64,000 bases of DNA from Mobula hypostoma (lineage: Eukaryota), in assembly GCF_963921235.1 (NCBI RefSeq), contig NC_086097.1, forward strand, positions 11,966,001 to 12,030,000. Reading direction: 5' to 3'. The notes beneath the pieces were generated by a model that was given only the letters and a program-made list of their open reading frames with translations, was not told the DNA's origin and searched no databases. Within the stretch, counting starts at the first letter, position 1. Each line of letters begins with the position of its first letter. This document shows, piece after piece, positions 26,320-59,205 of this stretch. Made by a program: the position numbers and the translations under genes.

Positions 26320-26905
26320 TTGGCACCGCAGTAGCATAGCGGTTGGCGTGGTACTATCACAGCTCAGGGCGTTCCAGAGTTCAGATTTCAATTCCGATGC
26401 TGTTCTGTCAGGAGTCTTTGTATGTTCTCCCCGTTGAAAGTATGGGTTTTCTCTGAGTGCTCTGGTTTCTACCCAGAGTCCAAAGACATAATGCATAGGT
26501 TATTTTAAAAACGCAAACAAGAGGAATTCTGCAGATGCTGGAAACTCAAGCAACACCCATCAAAGTTGCTGGTGGACGCAGCGGGCCAGGCAGCATCTCT
26601 AGGAAGAGGACGATCTCCCCCCTCCCCCTCCCACTTTCAAATCTCTTACTAACTCTTCCTTCAGTTAGTCCTAACGAAGGGTCTCGGCCTGAAACGTTGA
26701 CTGTATCTCTTCCTAGAGATGCTGCCTGGCCTGCTGCGTTCACCAGCAACTTTGATGTGTGATACATAGGTTATTTGTTGATTGTAGATTGTTGTGTAAT
26801 TAGATTAGGGTTAATCAAGGTTGTGGGGGGGGGGGGTGGTTCCTGGGGTGCTGTAACTTAATGTGGAGGAAGGGCTTACTCCGTGCTCTATCACTAAATA
26901 AATAA
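26320..26905 (+). mobile_element. V-SINE (HE1-like) interrupted by a PLE insertion
   Basis: Head and V-domain 26320-26505; continuation and tail 26762-26905. Confidence 0.85.
26506..26761. mobile_element. Short PLE-derived insertion with inverted pLTR arms
   Basis: TSD at(g/a)cataggttattt (26491-26505 / 26762-26776); HHR at 26666-26703 with core mutation CTAACGA. Confidence 0.9.
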
Positions 26906-35345: not shown

Positions 35346-36457
35346 ATCACAAACACAAGAAAGTCTGCAGATGCTGGAAATCCAGAGCAACACACACAAG
35401 GTGCTGGAGGAACTCAGCAGGTCAGGCAGCATCTATGGTAAAGAGTCGACGTTTTGATCCGAGATCCTTCATCAGTACTGGAAAGGAAGAGGGAAGAATC
35501 TAGAACAAGAAGGTTGAGGGGAGGGGAGGAAGAAGTACAAGGTGGTTCCAGCAGTCCCGGTGTAGCCTCCTGTATATCAGTGAGACCTGACGTAGATTGG
35601 GAGATCTCTTCGTCAAGCACCTTTGCTCCGTCTGCCACAAAGAGTGGGAATTCCTGATGACCACCCATTTCAATTCTACATCCAATTCACATTTTGACAT
35701 GTCAGTGCACTGCCTCCTCTACTGCTAGGATGAGGCCACACTCAGTTAGAGGAGTAAAACCTTATAATTCCTCTGAGTAGCCTCCAACCTGATGGTATGA
35801 ACATCACTTTCTCGAACTTCTGGTAATTGCAACAACCCCGCTCTCTTTCACCATTCCCCATTTCTGATTTGTTCTCTTACCTTATCTCCTTCCTGCCCTC
35901 CTCCTCTCTCTGATGCTCCTCCCCCTTCCCTTTCTTCCGTGGTCTTATAACCATATAACAATTACAGCACGGAAACAGGCCATCTCAGCCCTTCTTGTCC
36001 ATGCCGAACTCTTATTCTCACCTAGTCCCACCGACCTACACTCGCCCCATAACCCTCCATTCCTTTCCTGTCCATATATCTATCCAATTTAACTTTAAAC
36101 GACAACATCGAACGTGCCTCAACCAGTTCTGCTGGAAGCTCATCTTCTGTCCTCTCCTTTCAGATTTCCCCTTCTCCAGCCATTTACATTGTTTCTTTCA
36201 CCAATCAACTTCCCAGCTCTTTACTTCATCCCCTCCACCTCTCCCGGTTTTAACTATCACTTGCCATCTTGTACTTCTTCCTCCCCTCCCCTGACCTACT
36301 TACTCTGACTTTTCCCCTTCCTTTCCAGTCCTGATGAAGGGTCTCAGACTGAAATATCGACTGTTTACTCTTTTCCATAGATGCTACCTGACCTGCTGAG
36401 TTCCTCCAGCATTTTCTGTGTGTTGCTAGGATTTCAAACATCTGCAGATTTTCTTGT
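35346..36457 (+). mobile_element. 5'-truncated Penelope-like element with inverted pLTR at its 5' end
   Basis: Inverted pLTR 35346-35545; GIY-YIG C-terminal half (LLYISET*RRLGD...THFNST...SLQPDGMNITFSNF*) 35552-35826; direct pLTR to 36457 with HHR-like 36326-36363; CR1 tail nested at ~35945-36140. Confidence 0.9.
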
Positions 36458-54500: not shown

Positions 54501-54775
54501 AACGGATGCGCAATACTGGTCTTTGTCTAAGAATTGGAGGAATAAGTTCAACTCCCAGCATGGGAACTAGGAACTAGGTACAAAATATTCCTGTAGTCTG
54601 TGTGAATCGGCTAGTTTAACAGAGTTTATTAATTTGGATTTTGAGCATCGATACCATCATTTAATGCTCATCCTGTCCCTAAACTTTTATTCCTGATTTA
54701 CTTCATTGTCTACACTTAGTTCTCCAAAGGCTAAGAGAAATATGGTGAGTGGAAAAATATCAGATTGTCATAGAA

Positions 54776-54883
54776 ACAACACACATCAAAGTTGCTGGTG
54801 AACGCAGCAGGCCAGGCAGCATCTATAGGAAGAGGCGCAGTCGACGTTTCAGGCCGAGACCCTTCGTCAGGACTAACTGACTA
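54776..54883 (-). mobile_element. 108-bp PLE pLTR-derived insertion
   Basis: Exact 12-bp TSD attgtcatagaa (54764-54775 / 54884-54895); near-identical to 57897-57992. Confidence 0.9.
54838..54875 (-). ncRNA. Minimal type I hammerhead ribozyme, intact core
   Basis: TAGTC-CTGACGA-AGGGTCTCGGCCT-GAAA-CG-TC^GACTG; predicted cut between 54843 and 54842. Confidence 0.8.
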
Positions 54884-55224
54884 ATTGTCATAGAACACCC
54901 TTTTGATTCACCGATGCTCTTTGGTGATGTAATTCAACCATCGCTACCCAGTATGTGACTCATAAACAATGACAATGTGATGGGTTCTTTACTGCATCTG
55001 ATATAGCACAAATATCCTCTAACTCTGGGGTGGTTTGGGAAGAGAATTAAATTCTTGCTTTGACAGTGACATGGATGTCCCAGTTTTGAATAAACAAAAA
55101 AATGGTGAAACTGGCAGGAGTCAGTGACAAAGGAGATTCTGCAGGTGCTGGAAATCCAAAGCAACACACACAAAATGCTGGAGGAACTCAGCAGGTCAGG
55201 CAGCATCTATGGAAATGAATAAAG

Positions 55225-57075: not shown

Positions 57076-57950
57076 TAAATCCACAGTGCTGGTAAAACTG
57101 TGAAGGTAAGTAGTACTAAATTTTTCAATTCCAGTGGACTAAATTGTTTAATAAATGTAAATAAATTTGTAAGCAACGGGGCTGTCTCTTAAGTATTTGA
57201 ATAAGTTATTAATTAGAAGCAGAACTGTACCCATCAATGTGTGTGGTAAGAAAGCAAATATAATTACTTAATAAAATAATGTAAGATAAAACAAATCAGC
57301 AATACTGAATACATGCCACAAATATTTCACAGTTTGTAAAAAGCTATAATGCTGCTGATTCATTTCTGTATCTAAATATAAATCCTCATATTCCACAATT
57401 AGATATTGGTTTTGAAATTGCTTTTAATGGAATTGAGATCTGAGTTAATCTCGAGCTCAATTTGTAGTAATTCCATTGAAATATATTCCACTTTGTACTG
57501 ACAAAATAACGGTAAGTTATTTCTTATTTGCTGCCAACGCTGCTCTCGTTGCCATTTTATTGAATAGGTGGAAAGACACCTCATCTGATATCAGAATCAG
57601 AACCAGATTCAGAAGCAAAATCAGATTCAGGTTCAATATCGTTGGCACACCTTGTGAAATGTGTTGTCTCTGCGGCAGTGGTACAATGCAATACATAAAA
57701 ATAAAAATAATGACCGACTTACAGAAAGTATAAATATATTAAATAGTTAAATAAGTAGTGCAAAAATAAAAATAAAAATGTCGTGAGGTAGCGTTCATGG
57801 GTTTAATATCTGAAGGCAGAGAGAAAGAAGCTGTTGAGTGTGTGGCTTCAGGCTCCTGTACCTCCTTCCTGATGAGAACAGCGTAAGTCCTCGGTGCATC
57901 AAAGTTGCTGGTGAACGCAGCAGGCCAGGCAGCATCTCTAGGAAGAGGTA

Positions 57951-57988
57951 CAGTCGACGTTTCAGGCCGAGACCCTTCGTCAGGACTA
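57951..57988 (-). ncRNA. Minimal type I hammerhead ribozyme, intact core
   Basis: TAGTC-CTGACGA-AGGGTCTCGGCCT-GAAA-CG-TC^GACTG. Confidence 0.8.
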
Positions 57989-58029
57989 ACTGAAGGAAGA
58001 GAAAATCTCTTACTCACTCTTCCTTCAGT

Positions 58030-58067
58030 TAGTCCTGACGAAGGGTCTCGGCTTGAAACGTTGACTG
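58030..58067 (+). ncRNA. Minimal type I hammerhead ribozyme, variant
   Basis: TAGTC-CTGACGA-AGGGTCTCGGCTT-GAAA-CG-TT^GACTG (GUU triplet, weakened stem II). Confidence 0.7.
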
Positions 58068-58404
58068 TACCTCTTCCTAGAGATGCTGTCTGGCCTGCTG
58101 CGTTCACCAGCAACTTTGATGTGTGTTGCTTGAATTTCCAGCATCCGCAGAATTCCTGTTGTTTAAGTCATGGGTGACTGGTTTCCTTAATGATGGATGC
58201 CGCCTTTTTGAGGCATTGCTCCTTGAAGATGTCCTGGATACTATTGAGGTTAGTACCCATGATGGAACTGTCTAAGTTTACAACTTTCTGCAGCTTATTT
58301 TGATCCTGTGCAACGCGGCCCCGCCCCCATTACCGGATGCGATGCAGCCAGTTAGAATGCTCTTTACAGTACACCTGTAGAAAACTGTTGAATATCCTGA
58401 TTAT

Positions 58405-59205
58405 TCACGACGCTACTGCCACACACAGCTCAAATTCGCAGATGACACAATTTTGATTGGCCTTATTTCTAGCGGTAATGAGACAGCCGACAGAGAAGAA
58501 GCTGACACCCTGACACAGTGGTGCCAGGATAACACCCTCACTCTCAATGTCTAAAAAACAAAAGAGCTGTTTGTGGATTACAGGAGGAATGGAGACAGGC
58601 TTGGGCCTGATCAACATCAATGGGTCTGCAGTTGAGAGGGTGAATAGTTTCAAGATCCTCAGTATACATACACGTCACTGGTTATCTCACCTGGACTGTT
58701 CACACCAGCTTTCTGACAAAAAAAGCACAACAGCATCCCTTCCATTTCAGGCGACTGAAGAAGTTCGGCATGAGCCCCCATATCCTCAAGACCTTCTACA
58801 GGGGCACCATTGAAAGCATCCTGACTGGCTGTATCACCACCTGGTACGGGAACTGCACCAACCTTGATCACTGGGCTCTTCAGAGAGTGGTATGGACAGC
58901 CCAGCGCATCTGTGGATGTGAACTTCCCTCCATTGAGGACACTTATAACAGCAGGTGCAGAAAGAAGGCCTGGAAGATCATCAGGGACACCAGTCACCCC
59001 AACCATAAACTGTTTCAGCTTCTTCTGTCTGGCAAACGCTACCACAGCATTCAAGCCAGGACCAACTGGTCACAGGACAGCTTCTCTCTACAAGCCCTTA
59101 GACTTTTAAATTTATATGTCTGTGCATTGCAGTGGAGTTATAACATAAAGATTTTTACTCCCTCACTTGGTTGGATGTAAGATTTAGATAAATTCTAAAT
59201 TCTAT
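58405..59205 (+). mobile_element. Rex1/Babar LINE, 5'-truncated within the RT
   Basis: KFADDTILIGLI...WCQDN; ORF 58770-59180 FYRGTIESILTGCITTWYG; (aaattct) tail. Confidence 0.9.

What the first reader, a model, noticed from the sequence alone, without database searches (positions are those of the whole stretch)
57897..58163. Foldback mini-retroelement with a hammerhead ribozyme on each strand
Seen: a 267-bp insertion with a 13-bp imperfect TSD and two 105-bp inverted arms (15-nt spacer). The arms differ at 3 sites, all G:U wobbles in the + transcript. Each arm holds a minimal type I hammerhead core: CUGACGA, short stem II, GAAA, palindromic ACGU stem III, GUC/GUU site, AGUC/GACU stem I. Established: PLE pLTRs carry such minimal hammerheads, which cleave best as dimers, and PLE insertions often have an inverted pLTR at the 5' end. 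Inference: this ORF-less unit would be transcribed in either direction as a rod-like RNA in which the ribozyme is sequestered by its own antisense arm. It may be a self-propagating non-autonomous (retrozyme-like) family or a source of dsRNA/small RNA.
Basis: partly seen in the sequence, partly recalled or inferred. Interest (0 to 1): 0.8.

Follow-up and report, generated by a model that had tools for sequence, protein, structure and literature searches.

The report
Truncated head-to-head Penelope-like element insertion
The 267-bp foldback is a dead, severely shortened insertion of a very abundant Penelope-like retrotransposon, laid down in that element class's usual inverted-plus-direct form, so each arm simply carries the family's small hammerhead motif; it is an ordinary product, not a new kind of element.

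Summary
Arms 57897-58001 and 58017-58121 are 105 nt, 97% complementary, 15 nt apart. They differ at 3 sites, all C>T in the right arm. An 11/13 target-site duplication is verified against empty-site paralogues.

The arms are the 3' end of a Penelope-like element (PLE) family whose longer copies encode RT (YIDD) plus a C-terminal GIY-YIG endonuclease. Its hammerhead core occurs 122,352 times in this 3.48-Gb genome.

The unit has the published PLE insertion architecture: an inverted 5'-truncated copy abutting a direct one, with the 30-40-nt "tail" at one end only. The 15-nt spacer and the last 42 nt are family sequence.

At least 1,107 similar small foldbacks exist. Their junctions vary, and 21 of 24 examined have a clear TSD of their own. 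This indicates de novo formation at each integration, not a propagating or retrozyme-like family.

The motif fits the published PLE minimal hammerhead, but Rfam does not score it, the HHR fold is not the predicted optimum, and in the foldback RNA it is buried in a -226 kcal/mol hairpin. Cleavage, transcription and small RNAs remain untested.

Of passing interest: all 41 head-to-head insertions examined pair one long-tail end with one short-tail end.

The parts
57884..57896 (.). Left copy of the 13-bp target-site duplication (TAAGTCCTCGGTG)
   Evidence: 11/13 identical to 58164-58176. Paralogues L079 and L080 of the host repeat hold this 13-mer once.
57897..58001 (-). Inverted 5'-truncated PLE copy (left arm). 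It covers the family's 3'-UTR positions 0..104, has no tail ('short-tail' end), and is identical to the majority base of 127 sampled copies at all 105 positions.
57951..57988 (-). Minimal type I hammerhead motif on the - strand: helix I AGUC/GACU, CUGACGA, unpaired A, helix II GGGU/GCCU with loop CUCG, GAAA, palindromic CG, U, C17. The predicted cut lies between 57956 and 57955.
   Evidence: Direct reading. Pattern hits. Structure evaluation -7.6 kcal/mol, not the predicted optimum.
58002..58016 (+). 15-nt 'spacer' (AAAATCTCTTACTCA). This is family sequence at positions -15..-1, i.e. the 5' end of the direct copy, not foreign loop DNA.
   Evidence: The same sequence precedes the arm in most of the 30 sampled copies. 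Mapping to reference position -14.
58017..58121 (+). Direct 5'-truncated PLE copy (right arm), with 3 C>T changes relative to the family majority.
58030..58067 (+). Minimal type I hammerhead motif on the + strand. Helix II is weakened to two G.U pairs, and the cleavage triplet is GUU. The predicted cut lies between 58062 and 58063.
   Evidence: Direct reading.. Structure evaluation -4.8 kcal/mol against an optimum of -18.5 kcal/mol.
58122..58163 (+). 42-nt PLE 'tail' (long-tail 3' end), present at this end of the unit only.
   Evidence: 13 of 30 sampled copies carry the full tail and the others stop within the first ~20 nt. Contigs of other copies run off into unrelated sequence at 58130 and 58164 (table 7).
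58164..58176 (.). Right copy of the target-site duplication (TAAGTCATGGGTG)

Best explanation
The unit is a dead-on-arrival, extremely 5'-truncated insertion of a high-copy canonical (RT + C-terminal GIY-YIG) Penelope-like element. It landed in an older repeat.

Proposed steps:
1. The endonuclease made a staggered cut 13 bp apart.
2. Both exposed 3' ends primed reverse transcription near the 3' end of element RNA. One primed at the distal start site, giving the 42-nt tail on the right. The other primed at the proximal start site, giving no tail on the left.
3. Both cDNAs stopped after about 105-120 nt.
4. They were joined 3' end to 3' end by a template jump, giving [inverted copy][direct copy] flanked by the TSD.

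Each arm therefore carries the family's 3'-UTR/pLTR minimal hammerhead, one per strand, as a passive consequence.

Shown: family membership, architecture, TSD/empty site, uniqueness of the junction, and diversity of junctions elsewhere.

Inferred: priming on both strands, use of one start site per strand, and the template jump.

The unit has no ORF and no demonstrated promoter. If read through, it would form a 105-bp hairpin in which the ribozyme cannot fold.
For: Family and parent element
- The arm is a repeat. The 35-nt hammerhead-core pattern (up to 3 mismatches) gives 122,352 hits against 0 for the reversed control.
- Longer copies carry one ORF with YIDD and a GIY-YIG motif. Pfam GIY-YIG scores 26.3 bits against a cutoff of 22.6. 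RVT_1 scores 26.4 bits, E 6.6e-6, below its cutoff of 29.6.

Architecture is the rule for the family
- 18 of the 30 copies sampled by arm similarity are head-to-head pairs with variable breakpoints.
- Two further examples lie in this window, at 26513-26770 and 35387-35827.

Tails
- In 41 of 41 distinct head-to-head insertions, one end has a long tail (38-50 nt) and the other a short one (0-22 nt). These are 24 small foldbacks, 14 pairs and 4 pairs, with the window counted once.

Single integration event
- The empty site is confirmed.
- 21 of 24 small foldbacks have flank matches scoring 10 or more, against 8 of 552 mismatched flank pairs.

Not a propagating master
- The exact junction occurs once.
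- There are 705 foldbacks with a 5-35-nt inner gap and 402 with a 36-66-nt gap, with many different junctions.

Literature
- PLE insertions often have an adjacent inverted 5'-truncated copy and a 30-40-bp tail, often at one end only (PMC8557442, passages).
- A purified PLE protein cleaves and extends both DNA strands and starts reverse transcription at two adjacent internal sites that delimit the tail (PMC11167929, main text read).
Against:
- Several near-identical breakpoints recur. About 5-6 loci share inverted end 0 / direct start -15 or -14. Four loci (L031-L034) share an inverted ~440 / direct ~1600 junction with unrelated flanks. Limited propagation of some composites is therefore not excluded.
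- The right arm carries 3 changes and the left arm none. This could mean two different template RNAs rather than post-insertion decay.
- RVT_1 falls below Pfam's curated cutoff in the decayed copy scanned.
- I did not find a full-length copy with an upstream pLTR. The two 5' ends fetched (L076, L077) have none.
- The PLE clade (Penelope/Poseidon, Neptune or Nematis) was not determined.
Confidence: 0.85

Rival explanations
1. A self-propagating, ORF-less foldback (retrozyme-like or SINE-like) family. A foldback RNA transcribed from either strand ends in the PLE 3' recognition region and is copied in trans by PLE protein, so the 267-bp unit is one member of a lineage.
For: Either transcript would end with the same ~105-nt PLE 3' region. 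A 32-nt junction pattern with up to 3 mismatches finds 32 loci, of which 24 of the 30 fetched are 263-296-bp foldbacks. A few junction types recur.
Against: The exact junction is unique. In the loci with the same breakpoints (L046-L048, L062) the tail sits on the opposite copy to the window's. Junctions among 1,107 small foldbacks are diverse, about 40 types in 50 listed loci by eye. Head-to-head pairs of all sizes, up to 1,600 nt, show the same tail rule, so one mechanism explains them all without a foldback master. The short-tail ends have the same length range (0-22 nt) as the 3' ends of simple, non-inverted copies (4-18 nt). The two hammerheads are on opposite strands, so there can be no unit-length excision.
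Confidence: 0.05
2. Whatever its origin, the unit acts as a hairpin-RNA gene. Read-through transcription gives a 105-bp dsRNA that is diced into small RNAs against the PLE 3' region.
For: The predicted hairpin is -226.4 kcal/mol (+ strand) and -215.2 kcal/mol (- strand). In Drosophila melanogaster lines transformed with Penelope, siRNAs map to the inverted regions of rearranged copies (PMC3681739, passages).
Against: No evidence here of a promoter or of transcription of this locus. With more than 120,000 family copies, any one hairpin is a negligible share. Rfam microRNA hits are generic hairpin matches below threshold, the best being 56.9 bits against a gathering score of 72.
Confidence: 0.12
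3. A simple 5'-truncated insertion that was later turned into a palindrome by a DNA-level event (replication template switch or hairpin repair), or an assembly chimera.
For: Palindromic duplications arise this way in many genomes. No independent short-read contig listed bridges the junction.
Against: The TSD flanks the whole unit, not one arm. The arms differ at 3 sites, so it is not a read-level artefact. The long-tail/short-tail asymmetry recurs in 41 of 41 pairs, which a random DNA-level duplication would not produce.
Confidence: 0.03

Closest known systems
Canonical EN+ Penelope-like element insertions (Penelope/Poseidon, Neptune, Nematis clades)
   Same: The parent family has an RT + C-terminal GIY-YIG ORF. 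Copies show heavy 5' truncation, an adjacent inverted 5'-truncated copy, a 30-40-nt tail at one end only, variable-length TSDs (10-17 bp here), and a hammerhead motif in the terminal repeat region.
   Different: Both copies are extremely truncated (105 and 162 nt), so nothing but the 3' end is left. The clade was not determined, and no copy with an upstream direct pLTR was recovered in the few long copies I could fetch.
PLE minimal hammerhead ribozymes (min-HHR; Cervera & de la Pena 2014, PMC4209133)
   Same: CUGANGA and GAAA cores, an unpaired nucleotide between A9 and G10.1, a helix I of 4-5 bp, no helix III beyond a palindromic 15.2-16.2 (CG), and location in a PLE terminal region. These ribozymes are expected to act only as dimers or with protein help.
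   Different: The closing pair 10.1-11.1 is G.U in this copy and in about 69% of family depth; about 31% have the canonical G-C (table 3). Helix II is only 4 bp, against 7-8 bp in the Schistosoma families. It is not scored by any Rfam hammerhead model at E <= 10.
Non-LTR (animal) retrozymes
   Same: Non-coding, derived from PLE pLTR-like sequence, and carrying a type I hammerhead.
   Different: Retrozymes are direct tandem repeats with a hammerhead in every unit, which allows excision and circularisation (bioRxiv 10.64898/2026.07.22.740005, passages read). Here the two motifs are inverted, one per strand, and the junction is unique.
L1 'twin priming' 5' inversions
   Same: An inverted 5' segment joined to a direct 3' segment within one TSD-flanked insertion, explained by priming from both target strands.
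   Different: In L1 (recalled, not checked here) the second primer anneals internally, so the inverted piece is a different, upstream part of the element. Here both pieces begin at the element's 3' end and so form a true foldback. Three of the 30 sampled copies (L002, L012, L018) do show an L1-like internal inverted piece.
Inverted Penelope copies as siRNA sources in Drosophila
   Same: Head-to-head PLE repeats that can give dsRNA.
   Different: Shown experimentally only for transformed D. melanogaster lines (PMC3681739). Nothing was measured for this genome.

Membership tests
Penelope-like element (canonical EN+) insertion | [quoted passage not shown] | tested here: met
   L031 ORF 8279-9556 has YIDD and a GIY-YIG motif. 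L075 has a 614-aa RT-bearing frame followed by GIY-YIG. Pfam GIY-YIG scores 26.3 bits against a cutoff of 22.6. RVT_1 has E 6.6e-6 but 26.4 bits, below its 29.6 cutoff.
Penelope-like element (canonical EN+) insertion | A 5'-truncated copy with an adjacent inverted 5'-truncated copy | tested here: met
   Window unit. 18 of 30 sampled family insertions have this form.
Penelope-like element (canonical EN+) insertion | An optional 30-40-nt tail, typically at one end only | tested here: met
   42-nt tail at the right end and none at the left. 41 of 41 head-to-head pairs have one long and one short tail.
Penelope-like element (canonical EN+) insertion | A target-site duplication made by a staggered cut | tested here: met
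   13-bp TSD (11/13 identical) with the empty site seen in paralogues. 21 of 24 other small foldbacks have flank matches scoring 10 or more, against 8 of 552 in the control.
Penelope-like element (canonical EN+) insertion | Preference for AT-rich targets | tested here: inconclusive
   Flanks of 24 foldbacks are 63.6% A+T against 58.8% for the window. Run-off consensus beyond both 3' ends is T/A-rich but with low agreement, 0.38-0.48.
Hammerhead ribozyme, PLE minimal type I | Invariant core C3-U4-G5-A6-N7-G8-A9, G12-A13-A14, A15.1-U16.1, H17 | tested here: met
   CUGACGA ... GAAA-CG-U-C (left arm, - strand) and GAAA-CG-U-U (right arm, + strand).
Hammerhead ribozyme, PLE minimal type I | Helix II closed by G10.1-C11.1, with an unpaired nucleotide 5' of it | tested here: inconclusive
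   The unpaired A is present. The closing pair is G.U here. C11.1 is present in 5 of 118 regex hits and in about 31% of family depth (table 3). The right arm has a second G.U pair.
Hammerhead ribozyme, PLE minimal type I | Helix I of 4-5 bp and a palindromic 15.2-16.2 that allows a dimeric helix III | tested here: met
   AGUC/GACU plus U.G; ACGU palindrome.
Hammerhead ribozyme, PLE minimal type I | Recognition by curated covariance models | tested here: not met
   0 of 15 Rfam matches at E <= 10 over 57400-58700 are hammerhead families. 0 matches at gathering score in the whole window.
Hammerhead ribozyme, PLE minimal type I | Self-cleavage | not testable with these tools
   The HHR helices score -4.8 and -7.6 kcal/mol against optima of -18.5 and -18.3 for a 75-nt arm. 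The published PLE ribozymes are weak or protein-assisted (PMC4209133, PMC11167929).
Non-LTR retrozyme | Direct tandem repeats, each with a type I hammerhead, on one strand | tested here: not met
   The two motifs are on opposite strands.
Non-LTR retrozyme | A family of copies sharing the unit structure | tested here: not met
   The exact junction occurs 1 time in the genome. Junctions of similar foldbacks are diverse.
MITE / foldback DNA transposon | Terminal inverted repeats specific to a DNA transposon, with a fixed-length TSD | tested here: not met
   The arms are the 3' end of a retroelement. TSD lengths vary from about 10 to 17 bp. The ends are asymmetric, with a tail on one side only.
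microRNA precursor | Score at or above the family gathering threshold | tested here: not met
   Best hit is MIR1888 at 56.9 bits against 72. All hits are generic long-hairpin matches.

The most novel reading that the evidence does not exclude
The strict pairing of one long-tail end with one short-tail end in every head-to-head insertion examined (41 of 41) may be the in vivo footprint of a dimeric PLE ribonucleoprotein. In this reading, the two protomers prime from the two target strands at the two adjacent start sites of the same RNA. The copy started at the proximal site tends to run further: by my tally it is the longer copy in about 30 cases, against about 10 for the long-tail copy. Small foldbacks like this one would then be abortive double-primed events, produced by the thousand, and would seed the genome with ready-made hairpin-RNA loci against the element's own 3' end.
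Probability: 0.3. Interest if true: 0.5.

Novelty: new member of a known kind. Interest (0 to 1): 0.2.

Why it matters
For this locus, little: it is one dead fragment among more than 120,000 copies of the family's 3' end. It does show that 'hammerhead on both strands' foldbacks are an automatic by-product of PLE integration. They should not be annotated as a new element class, as retrozymes, or as microRNA-like genes.

The family-wide regularities seen on the way are cheap genomic support for the two-start-site, both-strand priming seen in vitro for one PLE. These are one tailed and one untailed end per event, two discrete 3' termini, and diverse but clustered turn-around points. They could be turned into a proper census of how PLEs integrate.

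Tried and rejected
- **Rfam.** No hammerhead family at E <= 10 around the unit. Only sub-threshold microRNA, RRE and sRNA hairpin matches appeared. Nothing in the window reaches a gathering score.
- **Sequencing runs.** No RNA holder is listed on record. Four runs guessed to be RNA hold part of the stretch.
- **Laying reads.** Two DNA and two guessed-RNA runs were laid, all of them contigs. Depth is swamped by the repeat family, no starts or ends can be read, and no listed piece bridges the junction or the insertion borders. This gave no information on expression, on cleavage, or on whether the second species (organism B) shares this insertion. The unique flanks have no cover in the two guessed-RNA runs.
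- **Full-length element.** I tried to find a copy with an upstream pLTR. L075 starts inside the ORF. L076 and L077 start at a common 5' end with no pLTR before it.
- **ESM Atlas.** The 614-aa frame gave only unnamed animal RT clusters (DUF8422, HTH_animal, RVT_1), which is no help with the clade.
- **Thermodynamic folding of a single arm.** The hammerhead fold is not the predicted optimum, as a monomer or as a homodimer. This does not decide activity for a protein-assisted or dimeric ribozyme.
- **Earlier notes.** None exist for this genome.
- **Ideas considered and dropped.**
  - The G:U pattern as a sign of selection for the + strand hairpin: three same-direction transitions have a chance of about 1 in 4.
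  - A snap-back (self-primed) origin of the junction: the cDNA end has no complementarity to prime on itself.
  - Hammerhead cleavage defining the junction: the cut site lies about 45 nt downstream of the junction.

Full report

Yes. The repeat finder reports one inverted pair in 57500-58600. Its arms are 57897-58001 and 58017-58121, each 105 nt, 97% complementary, with 15 nt between them.

The arms differ at three positions. At each, the right arm has T where the reverse complement of the left arm has C. In the + transcript these give G:U pairs, and the predicted helix is unbroken at -226.4 kcal/mol (z = -29.5). In the - transcript they are A.C mismatches, and the fold is -215.2 kcal/mol.

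The flanking 13-mers are TAAGTCCTCGGTG and TAAGTCATGGGTG, identical at 11 of 13 positions. The surrounding DNA is itself an older repeat, with 3,861 first-look candidates at 81-85% identity. Two of its paralogues (L079, L080) carry the 13-mer once, and both window flanks align onto the same 13 positions. The 267-bp stretch is therefore a true insertion with a true target-site duplication.

**2. What the arms are.**

The right arm matches at least 40 other places at 95-99% identity, out of 1,130 first-look candidates. A 35-nt pattern across the hammerhead core, allowing up to 3 mismatches, occurs 122,352 times in this 3.48-Gb genome. The reversed control gives 0.

In other copies the sequence continues upstream of the arm, and the 15-nt 'spacer' of the window is part of that upstream sequence. 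Downstream, copies either stop within about 20 nt or run through a further ~43 nt. The window's last 42 nt are this extension.

Walking upstream in longer copies gives an ORF with the RT motif YIDD and a GIY-YIG motif. The stop codon lies about 280 nt before the arm (L031). A longer copy (L075) has a 614-aa RT-bearing frame. Pfam finds GIY-YIG above its cutoff (26.3 bits against 22.6). It finds RVT_1 at E 6.6e-6 but below its cutoff (26.4 bits against 29.6).

RT plus a C-terminal GIY-YIG endonuclease defines canonical Penelope-like elements (PMC8557442 and PMC11167929, text read). I did not determine the clade.

**3. The foldback form is the family's normal way of inserting.**

Of the 30 copies fetched by similarity to the arm, 18 are head-to-head pairs: an inverted copy and a direct copy, both beginning at the element's 3' end. 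Fourteen of these are visible within the 3.1-kb loci. Four more appear after extending the loci.

Breakpoints vary widely. Examples are inverted 620 / direct 425, inverted 1,290 / direct 280, and inverted ~440 / direct ~1,600. Nine copies have no adjacent inverted piece, and three have an inverted internal piece.

The window holds further examples. There is a second young head-to-head insertion at about 26513-26770. There is a simple 107-nt insertion at about 54778-54883, flanked by a perfect 12-bp duplication. An older related family in head-to-head form lies at 35387-35827.

**4. Is it a family of its own?**

It occurs exactly once, in the window. With one mismatch there are eight more hits. 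Three of these (L037, L039, L041) are PLE foldback-type loci, and five belong to an unrelated repeat.

A 32-nt junction pattern with up to 3 mismatches finds 32 loci, against 0 in the control. Of the 30 fetched, 24 are complete small foldbacks of 263-296 bp, and six have only the inverted arm plus a few further nucleotides.

All 24 have unrelated flanks. In 21 of them the two flanks share a match scoring 10 or more, against 8 of 552 mismatched flank pairs.

A gapped palindromic pattern finds 705 loci with 5-35 nt between the inner arm ends and 402 with 36-66 nt. Both controls give 0. Among the 50 loci listed on contig C1 I count by eye about 40 different junction sequences. A few types recur, mostly perfect palindromes.

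In the loci that share the window's breakpoints (L046-L048, L062), the tail sits on the opposite copy to the window's.

Taken together, the junctions are made anew at each integration, with some preferred turn-around points near positions -20 to 0. There is no master foldback. Limited propagation of some composites cannot be excluded. One example is the four loci L031-L034, which have an identical junction and unrelated flanks.

**5. Mechanism.**

Established by others: a purified PLE protein cleaves and extends both strands of the target, and it starts reverse transcription at two adjacent internal sites that delimit the 'tail' (PMC11167929, main text).

Shown here:
- In all 24 small foldbacks, one end has a tail of 38-50 nt and the other a tail of 0-22 nt.
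- The same holds for the 14 + 4 larger pairs.
- With the window counted once, this is 41 of 41.
- In simple copies, both kinds of 3' end occur.
- Contigs of other copies run off into unrelated sequence just after 58129 and 58163, which marks two discrete termini (table 7).

Inferred:
1. In one event, each target strand primes at a different start site.
2. The two cDNAs are joined 3' end to 3' end by a template jump.
3. In the window, the tailed copy reached position -15 and the untailed copy reached position 0.

By my tally, the short-tail copy is the longer of the two in about 30 cases, against about 10 for the long-tail copy. This tally is exploratory, and the L031-L034 loci may not be independent.

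**6. The hammerhead.**

Read against the features listed by Cervera and de la Pena (PMC4209133, passages), the motif has:
- the CUGANGA and GAAA cores;
- an unpaired A after A9;
- G10.1;
- a 4-bp helix II (GGGU/GCCU) with loop CUCG;
- no helix III beyond the palindromic C15.2-G16.2;
- U16.1 followed by C17 (left arm) or U17 (right arm);
- a 4-5-bp helix I.

The closing pair is G.U rather than G-C. The C11.1 form makes up about 31% of family depth (table 3) and 5 of 118 regex hits. The other common variants in genomic copies fall at CpG sites (table 3), as expected for neutral decay.

Several results count against a confident call:
- Rfam does not score the motif.
- The hammerhead helices are far from the predicted optimum of an isolated arm (-4.8 and -7.6 against about -18.4 kcal/mol).
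- PLE hammerheads are weak or protein-assisted in vitro, are not needed for insertion, and showed no RNA-seq ends at the cut site in the anole (PMC4209133; PMC11167929).

In a transcript of the whole unit there is only one sense hammerhead, and it is locked in a 105-bp helix. 'A hammerhead on each strand' is therefore a passive result of inverted duplication.

**7. Comparison and verdict.**

The unit works like, and is, a standard Penelope-like element insertion in its inverted-plus-direct form, truncated to the last ~105-160 nt.
- It is not a retrozyme: its motifs are inverted rather than tandem, and its junction is unique.
- It is not a MITE: its arms are a retroelement 3' end, TSD length varies, and its ends are asymmetric.
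- It is not a microRNA gene: the Rfam hits are below threshold.

A role as a hairpin source of small RNAs is possible and has precedent for Penelope in flies (PMC3681739). Nothing here tests it. No RNA holder was listed, and the laid runs were contigs.

Interest is low for the locus. The family-wide tail rule is the one thing worth a follow-up.

**Limits.** I saw only passages or named sections of the papers cited, and no supplements. Supplementary figures of PMC11167929 (S1, S2) and PMC4209133 (S2-S6) may bear on start-site usage and on vertebrate hammerhead variants.

Noticed in passing
Genome-wide; loci L002-L034 and L045-L074: In every head-to-head insertion of this family examined (41 of 41), one end carries the long 38-50-nt tail and the other a short 0-22-nt tail. 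The short-tail copy is the longer of the two about three times as often (my tally: about 30 against about 10).
   Followed up: partly
window 26513-26770: A second young insertion of the same family in head-to-head form. It has an inverted ~50-nt piece with the long tail, then a direct copy from about position -43 ending in a 4-nt tail.
   Followed up: partly
window 54766-54895: A simple minus-strand insertion of about 107 nt of the same family, without an inverted partner. It is flanked by a perfect 12-bp duplication, ATTGTCATAGAA.
   Followed up: partly
window 35387-35827 and 55161-55208: Older, roughly 77%-identical relatives of the family, again in head-to-head form at 35.4 kb. The 3' region downstream of the hammerhead (GATGCTGCCTG...TGTGTGTTGC) is the best-conserved part between the families.
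   Followed up: no
L031-L034 (four contigs): Four copies with unrelated flanks share the same internal junction: an inverted ~440 nt with the long tail, then a direct ~1,600 nt with a short tail. This is either a strong turn-around hotspot in the GIY-YIG coding region or a composite that has itself been copied.
   Followed up: no
L076:2186 and L077 (reverse strand) 2220: Two long copies begin at the same 5' end (CCATGGACAC...), and the RT frame is open right up to it without an in-frame ATG. No upstream pLTR is present. The N-terminal region contains a ~213-nt tandem duplication, with three overlapping hits on contig C18. The true ORF start and promoter of the family remain unknown.
   Followed up: partly
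window 57600-57896 and 58164-58420: The insertion sits inside an older interspersed repeat (3,861 first-look candidates, 81-85% identity). I did not classify this repeat.
   Followed up: no
G000, e.g. L036, L038, L040, L042, L043: An unrelated repeat with about 300 copies contains the near-palindrome GAAGGAAGAGAAACTCTCTTCC.
   Followed up: no
Runs X4, X17 (organism B) against X1, X12 (organism A): A second species carries the same PLE family at comparable depth, with the same common variants. It also has a near-identical contig for the unique left flank 57500-57860. Whether it has this insertion could not be told.
   Followed up: no
G000:C1:21862619 and 21866204: Two exact hammerhead-core matches lie in the same orientation 3,585 bp apart. 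This may be a pLTR-ORF-pLTR or tandem copy of the element. It was not fetched.
   Followed up: no
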